Shown here: positions 96-37,066 of the stretch, piece by piece
Layout: each line of letters begins with the position of its first letter
Position numbering within the stretch: position 1 is the first letter of the stretch
Source of the DNA: an uncultured archaeon
GTDB taxonomy: Archaea; Asgardarchaeota; Lokiarchaeia; Sigyniarchaeales; SOKP01
Length of the DNA stretch: 50,410 nucleotides
Assembly: GCA_964632315.1 (NCBI GenBank)
Contig: CAZWEM010000035.1
Location: 1 to 50,410, forward strand
Reading direction: 5' to 3'
Position numbers and translations under genes: made by a program
The notes under the pieces: model-generated
Seen by the model: only the letters and a program-made list of their open reading frames with translations
Told to the model about the DNA's origin: nothing
The model's database searches: none

Positions 96-102
96 TTTAT
101 AA
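96..102 (+). promoter_or_regulatory. Possible TATA box for tRNA-Ile gene
   Basis: TTTATAA about 50 nt upstream of the mature tRNA 5' end; weak evidence in AT-rich DNA. Confidence 0.3.
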
Positions 103-189
103 GGTATTTCATGTAATTGAATAGTAAGAGAGTTCCCAACACCTTCAAAGGGCCATTTGCTTAGCCTGGTTAAAGCGCAGGTCTTATAA

Positions 190-240
190 GTGACCCACAA
201 TCATACAGAACATTAAACTTTATTGATTGTGACAGTAAAA
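190..240 (+). other. tRNA intron 1 (51 nt, non-canonical position 38/39)
   Basis: BHB: central helix TTAT(184-187)/GTAA(235-238), bulges AA|G and AA|A; internal hairpin CACAATCA/TGATTGTG. Confidence 0.8.
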
Positions 241-247
241 ACCTGAG

Positions 248-276
248 AGCCTAACAGATTTCCTTAAGGCATGGAA
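248..276 (+). other. tRNA intron 2 (29 nt, variable loop, 45/46)
   Basis: Bulges AG|A and AA|A flank a GCCT/AGGC helix; central helix CCTG/ATGG is imperfect (relaxed BHB); removal gives AG|ATC variable loop. Confidence 0.65.
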
Positions 277-360
277 ATCCGGGGTTCAAATCCCCGATGG
301 CCCATTTATTTTTTTCTAAAACAATCTAAAAATTATCGAAATAACAAAGAAATTTGCAAG

Positions 361-1138: not shown

Positions 1139-2515
1139 TTACTTTTCAGTAATTTGTTGGTAAGCCTTTTCAAATCGATCTACTGCGGTTATAATATCCT
1201 CTCTGGTTGCCCCAATCGCAGCATTCATAACAATATATGGAGTTTTATAAGAATTGGTACACGTTCCGAACATTCTTGCTGAGGGATCATAAACCCTTGG
1301 TCCTGTGACTCTTAAGTTATATAGGGCACCTCCTAAAGCAAATAATTGTTCCTTTTTTAGCGAGTTTAAAGAAATTGCCACTGCAACTGGATTAAATATC
1401 TTAAGCACCCTCTCATTTATTTTTGAAGCAATTAGGGATAGCTTTTCTTCTAAAAGTATGCGATTTTGTTGTTGTTCTTTAAGAAGACTTTGATACCCCT
1501 CCACACCTAATGAAAGAATAGATATTAGAAAATCAACAATGGGGGAGGCAGAAGCTCTTCCTGCATATGCTTGACTTATTCTTTTTATCGATTCTTTATT
1601 CTTTGAAGCTAAAATTGCCCCACCTACTGGAGTCAATACATTCTTATCTGTTGATTGTATTATTGCATCCACTCGACCTGCATCTATTGCTGATCTGATT
1701 AGTTTCATCCATTCAGGGCTCTGTACTCCATAAGCATTAATAATAATGTGAACTAGATTATTTTGTTCTGCGATCTTGCTTATTTCTTTCACATCATCAT
1801 TTTCTCTAGGAGGGAAGAAACTTGTAAATGATAATATGGCATAACAGGTATCATCGATGGAATTTTTTATTTCTTCTATCGGAATTCGAACGGCATCCCC
1901 ATAAATTTTTCCTGGGACTATTTTTTTAGCTACTCCTACTAAATCGAGACTTTTTAATATTGAATTATGATCTAATTGGGGAATGATAACAACTCTCTTC
2001 TTAATGAGGGTCTCATCACTCCAATCTGGGCGTAGAGCTGCTAAAGCTAAAGCTAAAGTCATTCCAGTACATAAAGGAACTACAATTGCTCCCTTAATAT
2101 TCGGTAATCCAAATTTTCTTAAGAAATCACGTGCTAAGTAATTCACTAACTCATACATTATAGATCCCCCTGGAGCTTTAGGTTGAGGAGCAGTCAGAAA
2201 TCCACTTCTACCTATTCCATGACAAAATCCTCCTGACGTTTTTAGATGTAATTTTGATGCGATTCTAGCTTCTCGTTCTCCCACTCGTGATGCAGAATCA
2301 TCTTTATCTGTATCCATACTTGACAAACCTTGTAGCAAGAATTCAATTTGGGCATCACTCCAAGGTTTTTGAGGTACCGCTTTTTGTTCAAATAGGACTT
2401 TCAGTGGATTCAAAAAATTATTTAAGACTAATTGTCCACGCTTCAACATATTTTGGGGAATATCACTATTAGAAAAGTAGTCAATAATATTGCTGAAATC
2501 AACCATTTTGATCAC
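1139..2515 (-). CDS. spcS: O-phosphoseryl-tRNA(Sec) selenium transferase (SepSecS)
   Basis: RVGEREAR, HGIGRSG..APQPKAPG, INAYG, PLP-lysine QSTDKN..PVGG, YAGRAS motifs; directly downstream of tRNA-Sec. Confidence 0.96.
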   Translation of the reverse strand: MIKMVDFSNIIDYFSNSDIPQNMLKRGQLVLNNFLNPLKVLFEQKAVPQKPWSDAQIEFLLQGLSSMDTDKDDSASRVGEREARIASKLHLKTSGGFCHGIGRSGFLTAPQPKAPGGSIMYELVNYLARDFLRKFGLPNIKGAIVVPLCTGMTLALALAALRPDWSDETLIKKRVVIIPQLDHNSILKSLDLVGVAKKIVPGKIYGDAVRIPIEEIKNSIDDTCYAILSFTSFFPPRENDDVKEISKIAEQNNLVHIIINAYGVQSPEWMKLIRSAIDAGRVDAIIQSTDKNVLTPVGGAILASKNKESIKRISQAYAGRASASPIVDFLISILSLGVEGYQSLLKEQQQNRILLEEKLSLIASKINERVLKIFNPVAVAISLNSLKKEQLFALGGALYNLRVTGPRVYDPSARMFGTCTNSYKTPYIVMNAAIGATREDIITAVDRFEKAYQQITEK

Positions 2516-2537
2516 GTTTACAACGAATAGACTAATT

Positions 2538-2630
2538 TGGCGGCCCTCGAGGGGAATCGAACCCCTATCCCTCCGCGGGATAACTAGGTTTGAAGCCTAG
2601 CGTCAGAGACCACTCCAACCGTCAAGGGCC
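2538..2630 (-). tRNA. selC: tRNA-Sec(UCA), 9/4 fold, CCA encoded
   Basis: Reverse complement: 9-bp acceptor GGCCCTTGA/TCGAGGGCC, G73+CCA; 7-bp D-stem GTTGGAG-TGGT-CTCTGAC; anticodon arm GCTAGG-CTTCAAA-CCTAGT; long variable arm TATCCC-GCGGA-GGGATA; 4-bp T-stem GGGG-TTCGATT-CCCC. Confidence 0.97.
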
Positions 2631-2783
2631 AATATTAGATTAATTTAAAAAAATCTACTAATAGTTATTATTTTCAATTTTAAAAGAATTTTATGATTAA
2701 TATAGATAGTATTTTATAATCAATAAAAGGAAAAGAGATATTCTATAATGAATCTTCCATCCTAATGAAGTTAATATTTAATT

Positions 2784-3461
2784 TTATTTTACTATTTTAT
2801 CTTTGATATCTTCACATCTAACTCTTCTACAATTGGGATTCATTAAACCTAAACCATATACAGTGTCAATAAAATTCACAATAATATGTGATGTTGCGCC
2901 AAAGATTACGTATTTTCTTCCTAAAGAAGATATATAGCTAAACTTTCCGACCCCTATTAAAACTTTTTTTAAATAATAAGTACGTTCTCTATAATTCTTC
3001 TTATTAGCAAAAAAAGTAATAGGAATTTCAACAATCTCACTTACTTCCTCATCTTCCTTGTTCATAACTTGGTTTTCATTTATGTACCCAACGAATGGTG
3101 TAATAATAAATCCTTTTGGGGTTAGATGGTCATCAATGCAACCAATAATCTTAACATTCTCTTTTTTTATTGCTAACTCTTCTTCTAATTCTCTCAAAGC
3201 TGTATCAAGATAGTCATTATCAATTTCTGGATCAAATTTTCCACCTGGAAAAGACATTTCGCCAGAATGCTTGTCATTTTTATTTTTAGTTCGTCGAATC
3301 ATGACCAAATCATATGGTCTATTATTATGCGGAAGAATTAAAAACAGCACGGCAGAATTTATGAAATATTCATGTTTCATCGATAATCTAGATGGGGAAT
3401 TATACCTTTTCAAACGCGATTGTATCAAAATCGGGTCAAAAATAAATTTTTTTTCACTCAT
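2784..3461 (-). CDS. Nudix CoA pyrophosphatase (NUDT7/8-like), paralog 2
   Basis: R..HSGEMSFPGGK, TALRELEEEL Nudix box, IFGAT. Confidence 0.92.
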   Translation of the reverse strand: MSEKKFIFDPILIQSRLKRYNSPSRLSMKHEYFINSAVLFLILPHNNRPYDLVMIRRTKNKNDKHSGEMSFPGGKFDPEIDNDYLDTALRELEEELAIKKENVKIIGCIDDHLTPKGFIITPFVGYINENQVMNKEDEEVSEIVEIPITFFANKKNYRERTYYLKKVLIGVGKFSYISSLGRKYVIFGATSHIIVNFIDTVYGLGLMNPNCRRVRCEDIKDKIVK

Positions 3462-3466
3462 GACAA

Positions 3467-4177
3467 TCAGAAATTTTTCGTGATTTGATCCCTATATTTT
3501 ATATACTCCTTTAAATCCTTAATTTTCTCTAATCTGAATCGTTTTAAACCTAATTCAGAAAGAGTGAATCCATAGACTTTTTCTATAAAATTGACAATCA
3601 TGTAGGCAGTTGCACCCCAAACAGTATATCGCTTTTTATTAATCTTATCTTCATAATTGAAATAAAAGACTGGAAATTTATTGCCATCAATATCTACTGC
3701 TTGTTCTCTAAACTTTAGTCTATTAGTAAAGAAATTAATAGGAATCTTTAAAATTCTTTGAACTTCTGTTTCTTGTCTAATCAATTTTTGCTGTTTTTTA
3801 ATAATCCCAATGAATGGAGTAATAATATATTTTGTCATCGTGGGAAAATCATCTAAACAGCCTATAATTCTGACATCTTCCCTTAAAACACCAATTTCTT
3901 CCTGTGCCTCTCTAAGTGCGGTATCTTGAAGTGATTTATCACTTAAAGGCTCAAATTTTCCTCCAGGAAAAGACATTTCTCCTCTATGTCGACTTCCTCT
4001 ATTAGATCGGTGAATTAAAACTAAATCATATGGTTTGTTATTATAAGGGATAATTGTAAAAAGTATTGCAGAACTTGTAAAATAATCATCCTTTAATGAA
4101 ATCCGAGTGTTAGAATCACAGGGTATAAGATTTTGCGTGATTAAGGTTTCATCATAAAGGAATTTAGTAGGTTTCAT
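3467..4177 (-). CDS. Nudix CoA pyrophosphatase (NUDT7/8-like), paralog 1
   Basis: RHRGEMSFPGGK, TALREAQEEIG, VWGATA. Confidence 0.93.
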   Translation of the reverse strand: MKPTKFLYDETLITQNLIPCDSNTRISLKDDYFTSSAILFTIIPYNNKPYDLVLIHRSNRGSRHRGEMSFPGGKFEPLSDKSLQDTALREAQEEIGVLREDVRIIGCLDDFPTMTKYIITPFIGIIKKQQKLIRQETEVQRILKIPINFFTNRLKFREQAVDIDGNKFPVFYFNYEDKINKKRYTVWGATAYMIVNFIEKVYGFTLSELGLKRFRLEKIKDLKEYIKYRDQITKNF

Positions 4178-4262
4178 AAAATGTATGATAAAATTTTAAG
4201 ATGGTAATTAATTAAATTTCATAATATTCATTTCTAATAAAATTTTTAGTAAGTGAAAATGA

Positions 4263-4565
4263 ATGAAACTTCCTAAGGAACTAAGAGAAAAAGAGGATCT
4301 AAAGGGTGCTAGCAGTAAGAATAAAAAATGCAGCATTAAAGGATGTAATGAAGTTGCCATAAGATCATTATCTGAAAATAAATGGAAGAAATATGTTGAT
4401 AATGCAGATTTAAATTATATTGAAAATAGGCAACATAAGATCTATTTATGTAAAAACCATTATAGAGATGTAAACAAATATAGAAAATCGCAAGAAAAGT
4501 TTTATCTTAAAAAGGGTTTCTTAGATGATGATGTTTCTCAAGGAAAGGTAAAAAGGTATGATTAA
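4263..4565 (+). CDS. Small basic Zn-finger-like hypothetical protein
   Basis: CSIKGC...LCKNHY (C-x4-C ... C-x2-H). Confidence 0.7.
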   Translation: MKLPKELREKEDLKGASSKNKKCSIKGCNEVAIRSLSENKWKKYVDNADLNYIENRQHKIYLCKNHYRDVNKYRKSQEKFYLKKGFLDDDVSQGKVKRYD

Positions 4566-4691
4566 TCAAGGAATAGAAGCCATTTGGGTATAAATTGAAG
4601 GATACTGTAAAAATTCTGTTCCTACTATTCCTAATGTGAGTAAAGATAAAGCAATCAAAAATATAATGACTCCTATTATTTTTTTCCTCAT
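4566..4691 (-). CDS. Small single-TM/secreted peptide (41 aa), not in ORF track
   Basis: MRKKIIGVIIFLIALSLLTLGIVGTEFLQYPSIYTQMASIP*: basic N-terminus plus hydrophobic stretch; fills the gap without overlapping neighbours. Confidence 0.55.
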   Translation of the reverse strand: MRKKIIGVIIFLIALSLLTLGIVGTEFLQYPSIYTQMASIP

Positions 4692-4741
4692 TATAATCAT
4701 TAGAGTAAATTAATTTATCAAAATAAAATTTTGTTTTCAAG

Positions 4742-5608
4742 TTACTTGACAAGTTTTTCTAAAGTCTTAATTTTCACATCAATCTTTTTTAATCTTGTCT
4801 CAAAATCTTTTTCTTTAGCTTTAAAATCTTGTTCAGTTAATTCTTTAGCATGAAATCTTCCATCATTGAGATTTTTCTCGGAATTAATTTCTGCTTTTTC
4901 CAGTTTTAGCTCTTTTATCCACAATTTCATTCCAGATGTCAAATTCTCCCGTTCTTCTTCCAGACTTTCTTTTTCTTCTTTATATTTATCCCTTAATTTC
5001 TCAAATGAATCCTTATCTACTTTATGCAACTTATGTTCTTTCGTTAAATTTTTTAACTGGAAGATCTTTGTATCAATATCACTTTGAATCCTCTGAACTA
5101 TGAAGGGCTCCTCCATCTTTCCTTTAATTTCAATTTCTTTAGCCTTTAATTCATTTATTAAAGTTTTTATTGCATCTAACTTGACATTAATTGTGTTTTT
5201 ATATTGTTCATCATACTCATATTTTGGATCTTTTAGGGACTTCTGCAATTCTTTTAATTTATCAATTAAGAGTTCTTTATTTAGCTGAATATCATTATAT
5301 TCGATATATAATATCATCTGTTCTTTGACCTCATATGGAAGTGGTTTTTCGACGATCTCATCCTTTTTTTTCTTTTTTGATTTCTTTACTGATTCTAACT
5401 CTTCCTCCTCCATATCACTATCTTCATCTGTAAATTCAATTATTCTTTCTTCTTTTGGGGTAATTTTAGGACGTAAAGGTTCTTGAGACTCTCGCCTTTT
5501 AGTTTCTGGAATGTCTCTTAAGACAGGTTTTCCACATATGATACAGAATTTATCAGTTTCCTTCAATGGATTTCCACAGTACACACAATATTTAGGCATA
5601 ATTTTCAC
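4742..5608 (-). CDS. Zinc-ribbon + coiled-coil protein
   Basis: N-terminal CVYCG...FCIICG; long charged helical C-terminus. Confidence 0.8.
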   Translation of the reverse strand: MKIMPKYCVYCGNPLKETDKFCIICGKPVLRDIPETKRRESQEPLRPKITPKEERIIEFTDEDSDMEEEELESVKKSKKKKKDEIVEKPLPYEVKEQMILYIEYNDIQLNKELLIDKLKELQKSLKDPKYEYDEQYKNTINVKLDAIKTLINELKAKEIEIKGKMEEPFIVQRIQSDIDTKIFQLKNLTKEHKLHKVDKDSFEKLRDKYKEEKESLEEERENLTSGMKLWIKELKLEKAEINSEKNLNDGRFHAKELTEQDFKAKEKDFETRLKKIDVKIKTLEKLVK

Positions 5609-5722
5609 TATATTATTATATGATTTAATCTAAACTACTATAACTTAAATTAAAATCCATTGAATTAAATTTTATTGGAGTCCAATATTTAAAGTAATGC
5701 TAATGAAAAGGTTATTTGATTC

Positions 5723-7171
5723 ATGCAAGAGATTAAAAAAAAGATCCCAATACATATTGGATTATTTGGACACATAGATAGTGGTAAAACCGCGATTGCT
5801 GAAAACTTAAGTGAAGTAATTTCTACGGCTGGTATTGATGCTCATCCTCAAAGTAAGGAGCGTGGAATTACAATTGATTTAGGATTTACTAGTTTTATTA
5901 TTGATGACTATATCATTACATTGGTAGATGGTCCAGGTCACGCGGACTTGATTAAAATAAGTGCTTCTTCAGTTGAAATTATAGATTTAGCATTAATCGT
6001 TATAGATATCAATAAAGGACCACAAGTTCAGACTGGTGAACATATTATCATGATAGAGGCTCTAGGAGTTAAAGATATTATAGTGGCTTTAAACAAAATC
6101 GATCTATTTAAAGGAGATCTTCAAAAAGAAATACTAAAAATTAGAGATTTTTTCAGTTCTACGTCTTATGATGCCAATATTCCAATTTATCCCGTATCAG
6201 CAAAAGAGAAGAACGGCTTTGAAGAGCTAAAAACTGGACTTTTAAAAAAAATAAAACAACTAAATGTAGAGAGGGATACTGAAGGAAGTGTTATATTTCC
6301 TATTGATCATCATTTCTCGATAAAGGGTAGAGGTACAATAATCACAGGAACTCTTATAAAAGGTAAATTAAACGTAAATCAAGAATTGCACATTTTACCT
6401 ATAAATGAAAATGGAAGGATTAAGTCCATGCAAATGTTCCATCAAGATGTTTCTACAGCAATGGCGGGAGATCGACTTGGGATCAACGTTAAAGGGGTAA
6501 ATGTAAATAAGATTTATCGTGGATGTTATGCTACAGATAATATAAATAACTTTGAATATTGGGATTTAATCGAAGTACATGTCAAAAAAAGTAGTTTGTT
6601 CAAACCAGAAATCAATTTTGGCAGCCAAGTTCATGTGACAATCGGAATGTTTACTACGGCTGGATATATTTATCCATTCAAGGAAATTAATGAAAAAAAA
6701 GTACAATTAAATACAGTTAAAAAGGATGAATCTTTCAAAGCTTTCTTGTGGCTAAATGAGAAAATTTTAATAGGCAGAGAAAAGACATTCATTCTATTGA
6801 GTAGGTTAGACCTACCTCCCACCACATTAAGAATTATTGGAGCTGCTGAATTAAAATCAATTGTTAAATCACCACCTGAATTGCACAAGTATAAAATTAA
6901 GAAAGGATTCATTCAGAATCCAAATCATCCTCAAGGAATTGTGTGTGCAGGTCTAGCTCAAAGTTTAAATGGAGCTAAAAAAATTATTGGAAAAAAATTA
7001 GAAGCTCCCTTTACTAAGATTTTAAGTACTTTTGGGACAAAAGGCTTGATTATCGTGGGAATAGATCCATCTGTTAAAAAAAGTCTCTTGAAAAAAGGAG
7101 AAACTGTTATATTAAAGGAGTTGAGAAGTTTTACTCTGAAATCTAAAAAAGATTTAAATGTTCAAACTTAA
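5723..7171 (+). CDS. selB: Selenocysteine-specific elongation factor SelB/EFSec
   Basis: GHIDSGKT, PQSKERGITIDLGF, DGPGHADL, NKID, DHHFSIKGRGTIITGT, RLDLPPTTLRI, C-terminal FGTKG domain IV; near tRNA-Sec and SepSecS. Confidence 0.94.
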   Translation: MQEIKKKIPIHIGLFGHIDSGKTAIAENLSEVISTAGIDAHPQSKERGITIDLGFTSFIIDDYIITLVDGPGHADLIKISASSVEIIDLALIVIDINKGPQVQTGEHIIMIEALGVKDIIVALNKIDLFKGDLQKEILKIRDFFSSTSYDANIPIYPVSAKEKNGFEELKTGLLKKIKQLNVERDTEGSVIFPIDHHFSIKGRGTIITGTLIKGKLNVNQELHILPINENGRIKSMQMFHQDVSTAMAGDRLGINVKGVNVNKIYRGCYATDNINNFEYWDLIEVHVKKSSLFKPEINFGSQVHVTIGMFTTAGYIYPFKEINEKKVQLNTVKKDESFKAFLWLNEKILIGREKTFILLSRLDLPPTTLRIIGAAELKSIVKSPPELHKYKIKKGFIQNPNHPQGIVCAGLAQSLNGAKKIIGKKLEAPFTKILSTFGTKGLIIVGIDPSVKKSLLKKGETVILKELRSFTLKSKKDLNVQT

Positions 7172-35244: not shown

Positions 35245-35864
35245 AATTTTTTCAACCCAATTATAAATGTCTCATTACTTTTTTTATAAGAACTTCTAGG
35301 TTTAAATCCCTTCACAAATTGAAATTTCCTTTTAACTAGTTTAAAAAAATCTTGATAGTCGACCCCTCGAAAAAGTTTTATTATTATATTCCCATTTTTT
35401 TTCAAAACTTCTGAAAATTCGAGGATTTTATAGCATAATCTGATTTGGTGGACTTGATCACTAAACTTATTCCCCGATTTTTGAATACTCGCATCTGATA
35501 TTATTAAATCAACCTCATCACCAAAATATGATTTGACTTCTGGGAGAAATTCGGGTACAGAAATGTCCATTTTTAATATTTTTACATTTTCTATTGGAGT
35601 TATGTTTTTGACATCAACTCCTAATATCTTATAAGAATCTCTGTGATAATATTTATCATTATATTTTAAGAGGTTTTCTTCAGCTTTTAATTTAGCAACT
35701 TGCAACCATGATCCGGGGGCGCTGCCAATATCAATAATATAAAAAGCTCGTTTAAAAATCTTGAATCTTTTTTCGATTTCCAGTAATTTATACGCAGATC
35801 TTGCTCTATATCCCTCTCTTTTTGCTCTCCTATAGGTCGGATCCTTATTATGTTGTTCAGTCAT
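35241..35864 (-). CDS. rlmE: 23S rRNA 2'-O-methyltransferase RlmE/FtsJ
   Basis: GYRARSAYKL, DIGSAPGSW, ISDA, KPRSS...E. Confidence 0.93.
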   Translation of the reverse strand: MTEQHNKDPTYRRAKREGYRARSAYKLLEIEKRFKIFKRAFYIIDIGSAPGSWLQVAKLKAEENLLKYNDKYYHRDSYKILGVDVKNITPIENVKILKMDISVPEFLPEVKSYFGDEVDLIISDASIQKSGNKFSDQVHQIRLCYKILEFSEVLKKNGNIIIKLFRGVDYQDFFKLVKRKFQFVKGFKPRSSYKKSNETFIIGLKKF

Positions 35865-37066
35865 TATAAATTCTCTTTCAGAATGTTATTTAATGAGTTT
35901 AAAGGGATGTTAGTTTTAATCGAAAGAGGATCAAAATGAGTTCTTGTTGCTTCATTTTTTAATTCTTTAATTATTTTAATGATAGATTGAATTTTTGGTA
36001 TTTGCGAGAGATTTAGCTTTTTACATAATTGATGGATATTATAATAAGAAATTGGCATATTTGTTTCTTGAATAATAATTTTTAACAATTTGTCCACTTT
36101 ATTTCGATTCGCATAATTCAAATTAGAATTTTCTTCCAACATTTGTTTAATAAATAATTCCTCATGAATTTTTCCAATCCAAAGTGGTCCTGCGTATTGC
36201 TGAATTGGTTTTTTACATAATGGACAAGTTGAATTTAATATAAAATCACCAATGTTTATTACTTTTCTATAACCACATTTTTCACAATGAATGATATAAC
36301 CATAATTTGAAAAAAAATGACTTATTTTGTCTTTATTCTTAAATGTTAAAGCAAAAATTCTAAGAAAATGATTTGAATAGAATGTTAAAAGGGGGGAAAT
36401 CCCGAGATTATTTATATTCGCAATTCTAGAGATGAAATGCAATAAAATTCTGGCTCCTATTTCTTTTGAATATTCTACTCGAAGTGGTTTAGAAAGATAT
36501 TTTCTTATACATGCATCTGATCTTACTCCAAATAAAACAGCAGTATCAGTTGCGGTTATACAAATTAATCCTTTTTTTTTATTGATTACTTTAAAAACAG
36601 AATCCATATAAATATTTGGAGTACCAAATGGATCAATAGAAATAACATCAGGCTTGTCGTTATTCTGCTGATTCCTTATTTCCAAAAGCAGTAAACTTGC
36701 ATCCTTCTGAGAGAGTGATATTTTATCAATATTGATGTTGTTAAATTTAAAATTAAATTTTATTAGTTCTATGGCAACGGGATTTATATCATTTACATAA
36801 AGCCTATGAATATTCTGGCAATCCTTGAGCATCCTGATTGAACCTATTCCTGAAGCAGCCATACAATCAATTACTATTAATGGTTTTTTAGCATAGAGCA
36901 AATCATAACTTTTTAAAGCGAGATTTGAGAGATCGCGGTTTAATTCCATTGATTTATTATAAAATACATTCATTGATTTTGAGGGGATGTTTTGTGCATC
37001 TTCTTTATATATATAGAATTGAACTGAATCTTCTTTTTTTTTAATTAAGTTTCTTTTTAAGCTCAT
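35864..37066 (-). CDS. trm1: tRNA (guanine-26-N2)-dimethyltransferase
   Basis: VFYN..M.LNRD, AASGI, DPFGTP, TATD, GPLWIG, RTHF. Confidence 0.94.
   Translation of the reverse strand: MSLKRNLIKKKEDSVQFYIYKEDAQNIPSKSMNVFYNKSMELNRDLSNLALKSYDLLYAKKPLIVIDCMAASGIGSIRMLKDCQNIHRLYVNDINPVAIELIKFNFKFNNINIDKISLSQKDASLLLLEIRNQQNNDKPDVISIDPFGTPNIYMDSVFKVINKKKGLICITATDTAVLFGVRSDACIRKYLSKPLRVEYSKEIGARILLHFISRIANINNLGISPLLTFYSNHFLRIFALTFKNKDKISHFFSNYGYIIHCEKCGYRKVINIGDFILNSTCPLCKKPIQQYAGPLWIGKIHEELFIKQMLEENSNLNYANRNKVDKLLKIIIQETNMPISYYNIHQLCKKLNLSQIPKIQSIIKIIKELKNEATRTHFDPLSIKTNIPLNSLNNILKENL

What the first reader, a model, noticed from the sequence alone, without database searches (positions are those of the whole stretch)
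150..304. Intron-containing tRNA-Ile with UAU anticodon (eukaryote-like AUA decoding)
SEEN: Ile-type acceptor (GGGCC.., A73) with anticodon TAT. U34 pairs with intron A237 in the BHB central helix, which supports T rather than a miscalled C. KNOWN: most archaea read AUA with tRNA-Ile(CAU) modified to agmatidine by TiaS; UAU is rare (reported for Nanoarchaeum and Korarchaeum). Eukaryotes use an intron-containing tRNA-Ile(UAU) with intron-dependent pseudouridines at 34/36 in yeast. INFERENCE: this lineage may have switched, or be switching, to the eukaryotic solution.
Basis: partly seen in the sequence, partly recalled or inferred. Interest (0 to 1): 0.72.

Follow-up and report, generated by a model that had tools for sequence, protein, structure and literature searches.

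The report
Two-intron Asgard tRNA-Ile(UAU), no TiaS
This is a real isoleucine tRNA gene, split by two small introns and carrying the unusual anticodon UAU, that most likely reads the very common AUA codon in a Loki-type Asgard archaeon whose whole order lacks TiaS, the enzyme most archaea need for AUA; a few other archaea are already known to do this.

Summary
Window 150-304 (+) is a tRNA gene (Rfam tRNA 43.7 bits; ARAGORN with introns: tRNA-Ile, tat). T185-A186-T187 is the anticodon.

It has two inserts, not one:
- a 51-nt intron next to the anticodon (190-240);
- a 29-nt intron in the variable loop (best model 248-276).

The spliced product is a normal 75-nt cloverleaf. Thirty orthologous loci in related genomes all keep the loop CTTATA[A/T] and an anticodon-loop intron, with compensatory changes in all three stems checked. 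It is neither a base-call error nor a pseudogene.

TiaS was not found in this 99.5%-complete genome by three searches, nor in 121 sampled genomes of its order. It is present in 171 of 301 genomes of the phylum. AUA makes up 30 per 1000 codons and sits at isoleucine positions.

The "eukaryote-like" reading is only partly supported:
- the switch away from TiaS is complete and old, not in progress;
- the partner tRNA is Ile(GAU), not the eukaryotic AAU type;
- there is only one TruA/Pus1-family gene;
- the same UAU solution occurs in DPANN archaea and is published for Nanoarchaeum and Korarchaeum.

This scan has noted the same thing on other DNA (77 notes, at least 61 genomes). How AUG misreading is avoided remains unknown.

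The parts
150..189 (+). Exon 1: tRNA positions 1-38 (acceptor 5' strand, D arm, anticodon stem 5' strand, whole anticodon loop CTTATAA)
   Evidence: Rfam alignment; sequence. CTTATAA is invariant in the same-genus orthologs, while the next base varies G/A/T.
185..187 (+). Anticodon TAT (UAU), positions 34-36
   Evidence: All 30 orthologous loci read CTTATA.
190..240 (+). Intron 1, 51 nt, at 38/39 by helix register (189-239 if canonical 37/38; same mature sequence). Relaxed bulge-helix-bulge: central helix T184-T187 : G235-A238, 5' bulge A188 A189 G190, then T191:A234 and G192:C233, and an 8-bp inner hairpin 196-203 / 224-231
   Evidence: The shifted register gives 4 bp in 18 same-genus loci; the canonical register gives 4 bp in 6 loci of other genera. 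The inner hairpin covaries among orthologs.
241..247 (+). Exon 2: positions 39-45 (anticodon stem 3' strand ACCTG, then A44 G45)
248..276 (+). Intron 2, 29 nt, best model at 45/46 (alternative 251-279 at 48/49). 5' bulge A246 G247 | A248; hairpin G249-T252 : A267-C270; weak central helix C242 C243 : G273 G274; 3' bulge A275 A276 | A277
   Evidence: Most orthologs lack it: they read ..CCTG AGAGC CGGGG.. or ..AGATC... It is present in 4 of the 30 loci including this one (the others are L002, L004, L111), all starting AG and ending GGAAATC. The central helix is 2 bp here, 3 bp in L002/L004 and 4 bp in L111.
277..304 (+). Exon 3: positions 46-73 (A46 T47 C48, T arm CGGGG-TTCAAAT-CCCCG, acceptor 3' strand ATGGCCC, discriminator A304). 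No encoded CCA
96..102 (+). TTTATAA, a TATA-box-like element about 50 nt upstream (inferred archaeal promoter, not tested)
   Evidence: Sequence. The upstream A/T-rich block is shared with orthologous loci L019/L020/L024. The bacterial promoter scan does not apply to archaea.
305..317 (+). T-rich tract (TTTATTTTTTTTC) directly after the discriminator; inferred archaeal termination signal
   Evidence: Sequence.

Best explanation
Window 150-304 encodes the AUA-reading isoleucine tRNA of a Loki-type Asgard archaeon.

Proposed pathway:
1. The primary transcript carries two introns. They are removed by the archaeal splicing endonuclease at relaxed bulge-helix-bulge motifs (inferred).
2. Ligation gives a 75-nt tRNA with anticodon loop CUUAUAA.
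3. The tRNA is charged by IleRS (inferred from A35-U36, A73, and closest similarity to tRNA-Ile(GAU)).
4. U34 pairs with the A of AUA.

Because the lineage has lost TiaS, it cannot turn a CAU anticodon into agmatidine-AU. The UAU tRNA therefore replaces tRNA-Ile2(CAU).

Shown here: the gene, its conservation, its anticodon, the lack of TiaS, and heavy use of AUA at isoleucine positions.

Inferred only: splicing, charging, and the modification state of U34. An Elp3 gene is present, so an xm5U-type U34 is possible. Pseudouridine or an unmodified U cannot be excluded.
For: Gene calls:
- Rfam tRNA 43.7 bits.
- ARAGORN with introns: Ile (tat).
- Fold z-score -4.27.

Conservation, from 30 orthologous loci:
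- All have the loop CTTATA[A/T].
- Compensatory pairs occur in the acceptor stem (pairs 3, 4, 6, 7), the anticodon stem (pair 2: AT/TA/GC/CG) and the T stem.

Spliced product:
- 75 nt; 75% identical to this genome's own tRNA-Ile(GAU), 68% to the Met(CAU) tRNA, 61-64% to unrelated tRNAs.
- UAU tRNAs of the sister family are 83-89% identical to Ile(GAU).

TiaS:
- TiaS_FLD, TiaS_TCKD and a whole TiaS protein find nothing in the 99.5%-complete genome. The controls ring in 4 archaea.
- 0 of 121 genomes in the order have TiaS, against 171 of 301 in the phylum.

Codon use:
- AUA is 30.3 per 1000 codons and 30.5% of Ile codons.
- At 17 AUA sites of Trm1, homologs have I 60%, V 17%, and M is not among the six commonest residues (each under 3%).

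Splicing enzyme: Asgard archaea have the (alpha-beta)2 endonuclease with the L1 loop, which cleaves relaxed motifs (PMC5829648).
Against: - No expression, splicing, charging or modification data exist.
- Neither intron has a strict bulge-helix-bulge. Intron 1 has a 1x2 internal loop in place of the 3' bulge. Intron 2 has only 2 of 4 central pairs here.
- My tRNA inventory is incomplete. About 41 genes and only one CAU tRNA were found. The initiator and six other expected tRNAs were not. An undetected CAU tRNA cannot be excluded.
- Haloarchaeal tRNA-Ile mutants with U34 (cnm5U) bind AUG as well as AUA and slow growth (PMC3895270). A plain UAU reader should carry a fidelity cost, and nothing found here explains how that is avoided.
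Confidence: 0.85

Rival explanations
1. The intron is cut in another register, so that the mature anticodon comes from the 3' side (T236 A237 A238 = UAA here, UAG in some relatives). That would make this a leucine tRNA.
For: The 3' end of the intron reads ..GTAAAA-ACCTG here and ..GTAGAC-GCCTG in relatives. Joining after T184 would give the loops CTTAAAA or CTTAGAC, both with Leu anticodons. The gene also has a long variable-region insert, a class II feature.
Against: - No helix-bulge geometry supports cuts at 184/235. The only 4-bp central helix puts the cuts at 189/240.
- CTTATAA is invariant, while the 3' hexamer varies.
- Most orthologs have a 5-nt variable loop.
- Two Leu(UAA) genes already exist.
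- The tRNA is closest to Ile(GAU).
Confidence: 0.03
2. The gene is a relic or minor tRNA. AUA is really read by an undetected CAU tRNA whose C34 is modified by an enzyme unrelated to TiaS.
For: - Seven expected tRNAs, including the initiator, escaped my scans, so hidden genes exist or are unassembled.
- New C34 modifications for AUA decoding are still being found in bacteria and organelles (PMC11938285, title and abstract only).
Against: - The UAU gene is kept in 30 loci with compensatory stem changes.
- It is the only cognate anticodon found for the ninth commonest codon.
- The loss of TiaS and the presence of UAU coincide across the order.
Confidence: 0.05
3. The contig is mis-binned, or the T at position 34 is an assembly error.
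For: The bin has 8.6% estimated contamination, and about 140 kb of high-GC contigs are clearly foreign.
Against: - The contig is 50 kb and lies among the bin's low-GC contigs (the bin as a whole is 33% G+C).
- It carries Asgard-type Trm1.
- The tRNA has orthologs in 21 of 24 same-genus genomes, some with a shared upstream sequence.
- All 30 loci read T at position 34.
Confidence: 0.02

Closest known systems
tRNA-Ile(UAU) of TiaS-less archaea (Nanoarchaeum equitans, Candidatus Korarchaeum cryptofilum; PMC6000648, PMC3895270), and the DPANN loci found here
   Same: - UAU anticodon in a genome without TiaS.
- Usually an intron in the anticodon loop.
- In Korarchaeum the best match of the UAU tRNA is the Ile(GAU) of the same genome (PMC6000648), as found here.
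   Different: - The host is an Asgard archaeon. I found no paper linking TiaS or agmatidine with Asgard archaea.
- There is a second intron in the variable loop.
- The anticodon intron sits one position off the canonical site in this genus.
- AUA is a very common codon here.
Eukaryotic cytoplasmic tRNA-Ile(UAU) (yeast: intron-dependent pseudouridines 34 and 36 made by Pus1; from my own knowledge and PMC3895270)
   Same: UAU anticodon, an intron beside the anticodon whose 3' part pairs with U34-A35, and no C34-modifying enzyme.
   Different: - No evidence of pseudouridine.
- Only one TruA/Pus1-family gene.
- The partner tRNA is GAU, not AAU/IAU.
- The intron is at 38/39 here.
- The splicing motif is archaeal.
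tRNA-Ile(UAU) of Mycoplasma mobile and other tilS-less bacteria (PMC3575796)
   Same: Loss of the C34-modifying enzyme, compensated by a UAU anticodon.
   Different: Bacterial, without an intron. The reported compensation lies in that bacterium's own decoding system, and nothing comparable was tested here.
Multi-intron archaeal tRNA genes with non-canonical introns (Thermoproteales, Asgard; PMC5829648)
   Same: Several short introns at the D loop, 31/32, anticodon loop, variable loop and T loop. The motifs are relaxed and are cut by an (alpha-beta)2 endonuclease with the L1 loop.
   Different: Nothing essential. This genome is an extreme case, in which nearly every tRNA gene found carries 1-3 introns.

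Membership tests
tRNA (Rfam RF00005) | Cloverleaf scoring above the family's gathering score | tested here: met
   43.7 bits against 29, model positions 1-71.
tRNA (Rfam RF00005) | Stems maintained by compensatory change among orthologs | tested here: met
   30 loci. Acceptor pairs 3, 4, 6 and 7, anticodon-stem pair 2 and T-stem pair 1 each show two or more Watson-Crick types.
tRNA-Ile(UAU) of TiaS-less archaea | Anticodon UAU after splicing | tested here: met
   T185 A186 T187. Both plausible splice registers give the loop CUUAUAA. Splicing itself was not observed.
tRNA-Ile(UAU) of TiaS-less archaea | No TiaS in the genome | tested here: met
   PF08489, PF22641 and a full TiaS protein give no match in a 99.5%-complete genome. 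0 of 121 genomes in the order have it. The controls ring in 4 archaea.
tRNA-Ile(UAU) of TiaS-less archaea | No tRNA-Ile2(CAU) | tested here: inconclusive
   Only one CAU tRNA was found (contig C6:53403-53552, elongator-Met-like). The initiator and six other tRNAs were not found either.
tRNA-Ile(UAU) of TiaS-less archaea | Isoleucine identity | tested here: inconclusive
   A73 and A35-U36 are present. The tRNA is 75% identical to its own Ile(GAU) and 68% to Met(CAU); orthologs in the sister family reach 83-89% to Ile(GAU). Charging is not testable here.
tRNA-Ile(UAU) of TiaS-less archaea | AUA used as an isoleucine codon | tested here: met
   30.3 per 1000 codons. AUA sites align with I/V like ATT and ATC sites, not with M (one protein, 17 sites).
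Archaeal bulge-helix-bulge intron (strict hBHBh') | Two 3-nt bulges separated by a 4-bp helix and flanked by helices | tested here: not met
   - Intron 1: the 4-bp helix and the 5' bulge are present, but the 3' side is a 1x2 internal loop and the inner flank is 2 bp before a further internal loop.
- Intron 2: only 2 of 4 central pairs here.
- Both fit relaxed forms. The sister family has the canonical 32-35 helix.
Eukaryotic tRNA-Ile(UAU) decoding system | Intron at 37/38 | tested here: inconclusive
   The helix register places it at 38/39 in 18 same-genus loci and at 37/38 in 6 loci of other genera. In this gene the mature sequence is the same either way.
Eukaryotic tRNA-Ile(UAU) decoding system | Dedicated Pus1-type pseudouridine synthase acting on positions 34 and 36 | tested here: inconclusive
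   One PF01416 gene only (contig C25:45232-45525), as in ordinary archaea. Its specificity is unknown.
Eukaryotic tRNA-Ile(UAU) decoding system | Partner tRNA-Ile(AAU, read as IAU) | tested here: not met
   The partner is Ile(GAU) at contig C20:30128-30265. None of the 9 AAT-loop candidates looked like a tRNA.

The most novel reading that the evidence does not exclude
The intron-containing tRNA-Ile(UAU) of eukaryotes was inherited from a TiaS-less Asgard ancestor. The anticodon-loop intron, kept in all 30 orthologs while the other introns come and go, is retained because an intron-dependent modification of U34 and/or U36 keeps the tRNA from reading AUG.
Probability: 0.1. Interest if true: 0.8.

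Novelty: new member of a known kind. Interest (0 to 1): 0.45.

Why it matters
AUA/AUG discrimination is one of the few places where the three domains of life use different chemistry: lysidine, agmatidine, and inosine or pseudouridine.

[quoted passage not shown] It reads a very common AUA codon with a UAU tRNA that always carries an intron beside the anticodon.

Two consequences follow:
- The origin of the eukaryotic tRNA-Ile(UAU) becomes a testable question, because cultured relatives exist.
- There is a sharp unanswered problem. A haloarchaeal U34 tRNA-Ile misreads AUG (PMC3895270), so these organisms must have some means of fidelity that is not yet known.

On the practical side, standard tRNA finders miss this gene and most others in the genome, so automatic annotations of such genomes will wrongly report that no AUA decoder exists.

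Tried and rejected
- **Leu reading by an alternative splice register:** rejected. See the first rival explanation.
- **Strict bulge-helix-bulge search over the whole precursor:** the top scores were cloverleaf helices, so the search was not informative. I replaced it with register tests on orthologs.
- **Full tRNA inventory.** I tried several approaches:
  - acceptor plus T-arm pairing scans;
  - T-arm-first and D-arm-first scans;
  - anticodon-loop scans;
  - initiator motifs.

  They recovered about 41 genes. They never found the initiator, Asn, Glu(UUC), Ala(UGC), Arg(CCG), Leu(CAA) or Leu(UAG). Several of these scans mostly produced noise.
- **Finding tRNA-Ile2(CAU) in five complete TiaS-positive Asgard genomes by BLAST with this gene:** only Ile(GAU) and unrelated T arms came up. 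Whether the UAU tRNA descends from Ile2(CAU) or from Ile(GAU) was therefore not settled directly; similarity favours an Ile(GAU)-like body.
- **Naming the TiaS-positive and TiaS-negative families:**
  - A TiaS protein search returned mostly Bathyarchaeia names.
  - A protein labelled 'Hodarchaeota' mapped at 100% identity to a genome of this window's own family.
  - The Lokiarchaeum GC14_75 protein matched that family at 65%.
  - I therefore do not trust the names, and I cannot say whether Heimdall- or Hod-type lineages have TiaS.
- **Box C/D guide RNA in intron 1:** no C or D box motifs were seen by eye. I did not pursue this.
- **Bacterial promoter and terminator scan:** not applicable to archaea.

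Full report
**What is there.** Rfam's tRNA model matches window 150-304 on the + strand from end to end, at 43.7 bits against a gathering score of 29. The alignment shows two large inserts: one in the anticodon loop and one in the variable region. Default ARAGORN sees only the tRNA-Sec at 2538-2630. With introns allowed it calls tRNA-Ile (tat) at 150-304. The strand folds much better than shuffles (z = -4.27).

Numbering from the sequence:
- acceptor 150-156 / 297-303, discriminator A304
- D arm 159-176
- anticodon stem CAGGT 178-182 / ACCTG 241-245
- loop C183 T184 T185 A186 T187 A188 A189
- T arm 280-296

No CCA is encoded. A T-rich tract follows the gene directly, and a TTTATAA element lies at 96-102.

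**Genome.** The window is contig C35 of a 4.45-Mb, 33% G+C assembly, 99.5% complete with 8.6% contamination. About 140 kb of high-GC contigs are foreign. C35 itself is typical of the bin. It carries Asgard-type genes: the closest named Trm1 relatives are Lokiarchaeota and Promethearchaeota.

**Orthologs.** A DNA search of 40 relatives found the gene in 21 of 24 same-genus genomes and in 7 of 11 genomes of a sister family.

I extracted 30 loci, including three from a public-collection scan.
- All have the loop CTTATA[A/T].
- All have an anticodon-loop intron of 41-77 nt.
- The other introns are sporadic:
  - D region: none, one or two.
  - Variable-loop insert: in 4 of the 30 loci (this gene, L002, L004, L111).
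  - T loop: an intron of about 30 nt in 7.
- The stems show compensatory substitutions: acceptor pairs 3, 4, 6 and 7; anticodon-stem pair 2 with AT, TA, GC and CG; T-stem pair 1.

This rules out a miscalled base and a decaying pseudogene.

**Intron 1.**
- In six loci of other genera, loop positions 32-35 (CTTA) pair with TAAG, TGAG or TAGG just before a two-base bulge and position 38. That is the canonical arrangement for an intron at 37/38.
- In 18 loci of this genus that register gives 1 pair. The register 33-36 (TTAT : GTAA or GTAG) gives 4 pairs.
- The endonuclease cuts two bases 3' of each strand of the 4-bp helix (established geometry of the motif, from my own knowledge). The cuts therefore fall after A189 and after A240, which places the intron at 190-240 (38/39).
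- Conservation agrees: A189 is invariant in the genus, while base 240 varies A/C/T.
- The motif is relaxed. C183 faces A239-A240, and the inner flank is two pairs followed by an internal loop and an 8-bp hairpin that covaries.
- A register that would produce a Leu anticodon from the 3' side has no structural support. It is also contradicted by the invariance of CTTATAA.

**Intron 2.**
- Most orthologs read ..CCTG-AGAGC-CGGGG.. or ..AGATC...
- The four carriers all start AG and end GGAAATC.
- The best model cuts AG | 29 nt | ATC, giving 248-276 at position 45/46.
- In that model, the 5' bulge is AG|A and an intron hairpin (GCCT 249-252 : AGGC 267-270) sits exactly where the inner helix should be.
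- The central helix forms between the anticodon-stem 3' strand CCTG and the intron's NNGG. It has 2 pairs here, 3 in L002/L004 and 4 in L111. The 3' bulge is AA|A.
- An alternative at 48/49 (251-279) gives a product of the same length and cannot be excluded.
- The two introns use the same CCTG strand, so they must be removed in sequence (inference).
- Asgard archaea have the broad-specificity (alpha-beta)2 endonuclease with the L1 loop (PMC5829648).

**Identity.** The spliced 75-nt sequence (150-189 + 241-247 + 277-304) is 75% identical to this genome's own tRNA-Ile(GAU) at contig C20:30128-30265. It is 68% identical to the one CAU tRNA found and 61-64% to five unrelated tRNAs. Sister-family UAU tRNAs are 83-89% identical to Ile(GAU). 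The published Korarchaeum case shows the same pattern (PMC6000648).

**TiaS.**
- The TiaS_FLD and TiaS_TCKD profiles and a complete Asgard TiaS protein (domains confirmed) find nothing in this genome. The profile controls ring in the four archaeal control genomes.
- No TiaS_FLD match was found in 121 sampled genomes of the order, 39 of them of high quality.
- In the phylum, 171 of 301 genomes have it, and whole families are either with or without.

**Need for an AUA reader.**
- In 1650 long ORFs, AUA is 30.3 per 1000 codons. That makes it the ninth commonest codon, commoner than AUG.
- In the window's Trm1, the 17 AUA sites align in 62 homologs with I 60% and V 17%, and M is not among the six commonest residues (each under 3%). 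This is the same pattern as at ATT and ATC sites. ATG sites align with M 60%.
- AUA is therefore isoleucine, and this is the only cognate anticodon found.

**Limits.**
- My custom scans found about 41 tRNA genes, nearly all with 1-3 introns.
- The elongator-type Met(CAU) tRNA has an intron at 31/32 plus a T-loop intron.
- The initiator and six other expected tRNAs were not found, so the absence of a tRNA-Ile2(CAU) is not proven.
- PMC5829648 reports the same difficulty with Asgard tRNA sets.

**How far the eukaryote analogy goes.**
- Shared features: a UAU anticodon, an intron pairing with U34-A35, and no C34-modifying enzyme.
- Features not shared: the partner tRNA is GAU, and there is only one TruA/Pus1-family gene.
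- The trait is not Asgard-specific. A pattern scan recovered tRNA-Ile(tat) genes in Nano-, Woese-, Pace-, Micr- and Aenigmarchaeota loci; 11 of those 12 DPANN genes have an anticodon-loop intron call, although for one of them (L055) default ARAGORN gives an intron-less model.
- Elp3 is present, so an xm5U-type U34 is possible.
- In Haloferax, a cnm5U34 tRNA-Ile binds AUA > AUG > AUU and slows growth (PMC3895270). The way fidelity is kept here is therefore an open question.

**Literature and earlier notes.**
- Four searches found no paper that links TiaS or agmatidine with Asgard archaea.
- A 2018 survey of 167 archaeal genomes lists UAU only for Korarchaeum and Nanoarchaeum (PMC6000648).
- This scan has already noted the same arrangement on other DNA: 77 notes in at least 61 genomes. 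I treated those notes as leads, and the tests reported above are my own.

**Verdict.** This is a real, conserved, two-intron tRNA-Ile(UAU) that replaces the agmatidine route in a TiaS-less Asgard order. It is a new member of a known kind. The eukaryote link is unproven.

Noticed in passing
window 1139-7171: Selenocysteine gene cluster next to the tRNA: SepSecS (1139-2515, -), tRNA-Sec (2538-2630, -; Rfam 61.3 bits) and archaeal SelB (5723-7171, +).
   Followed up: partly
window 35864-37066 (-): Trm1 (N2,N2-dimethylguanosine tRNA methyltransferase). The closest named relatives are all Asgard at 54-61% identity.
   Followed up: partly
whole genome G000 (e.g. contigs C6:53403-53552, C20:30128-30265, C3:15271-15427): Nearly every tRNA gene found has 1-3 introns, at many positions: right after the acceptor stem, in the D loop, at 31/32, in the anticodon loop, in the variable loop, and a recurrent intron of about 30 nt in the T loop (at least 10 genes). 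Infernal at its default threshold sees only 20 tRNAs.
   Followed up: partly
whole genome G000: Seven expected tRNAs were not found by any scan: initiator Met, Asn, Glu(UUC), Ala(UGC), Arg(CCG), Leu(CAA) and Leu(UAG). They are either unassembled or disrupted in ways my scans do not model, such as split or permuted genes or introns in the acceptor stem.
   Followed up: partly
G000 contigs C36, C74, C80, C82, C87, C90, C103-C113 and others: About 140 kb of contigs with 43-70% G+C, against 33% for the rest of the bin. This is bacterial contamination. C90 carries a spurious ARAGORN 'tRNA-Gly' call.
   Followed up: no
window 248-276; L002, L004: In intron 2, a TTCC in the loop of the intron hairpin can pair with the conserved GGAA tail. 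That would make an H-type pseudoknot competing with the splice-site helix. The same is seen in L002 and L004 with different stem sequences. It may be chance.
   Followed up: no
L063 and other 'uncultured Methanosarcinales archaeon' records (L065, L082, L093, L116): The UAU anticodon-arm motif occurs in several MAGs labelled Methanosarcinales, and ARAGORN confirms tRNA-Ile(tat) in L063. This is odd, because Methanosarcina has TiaS (it rings as a control). The label may be wrong, or this is a further TiaS-less lineage.
   Followed up: no
G045 (family f1, genus g12); protein P0110: A protein labelled 'Candidatus Hodarchaeota archaeon' at NCBI is 100% identical to a genome that the genome collection places in this window's own family. 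The Lokiarchaeum GC14_75 protein matches that family at 65%. Public names for these MAGs are inconsistent.
   Followed up: partly
L031:1075-2400 (G150): The TiaS of one Asgard genome is closest (53-60% identity) to TiaS of Bathyarchaeia and Methanomethylicota, with one Jordarchaeaceae hit. This could mean horizontal transfer of TiaS or a deep relationship.
   Followed up: no
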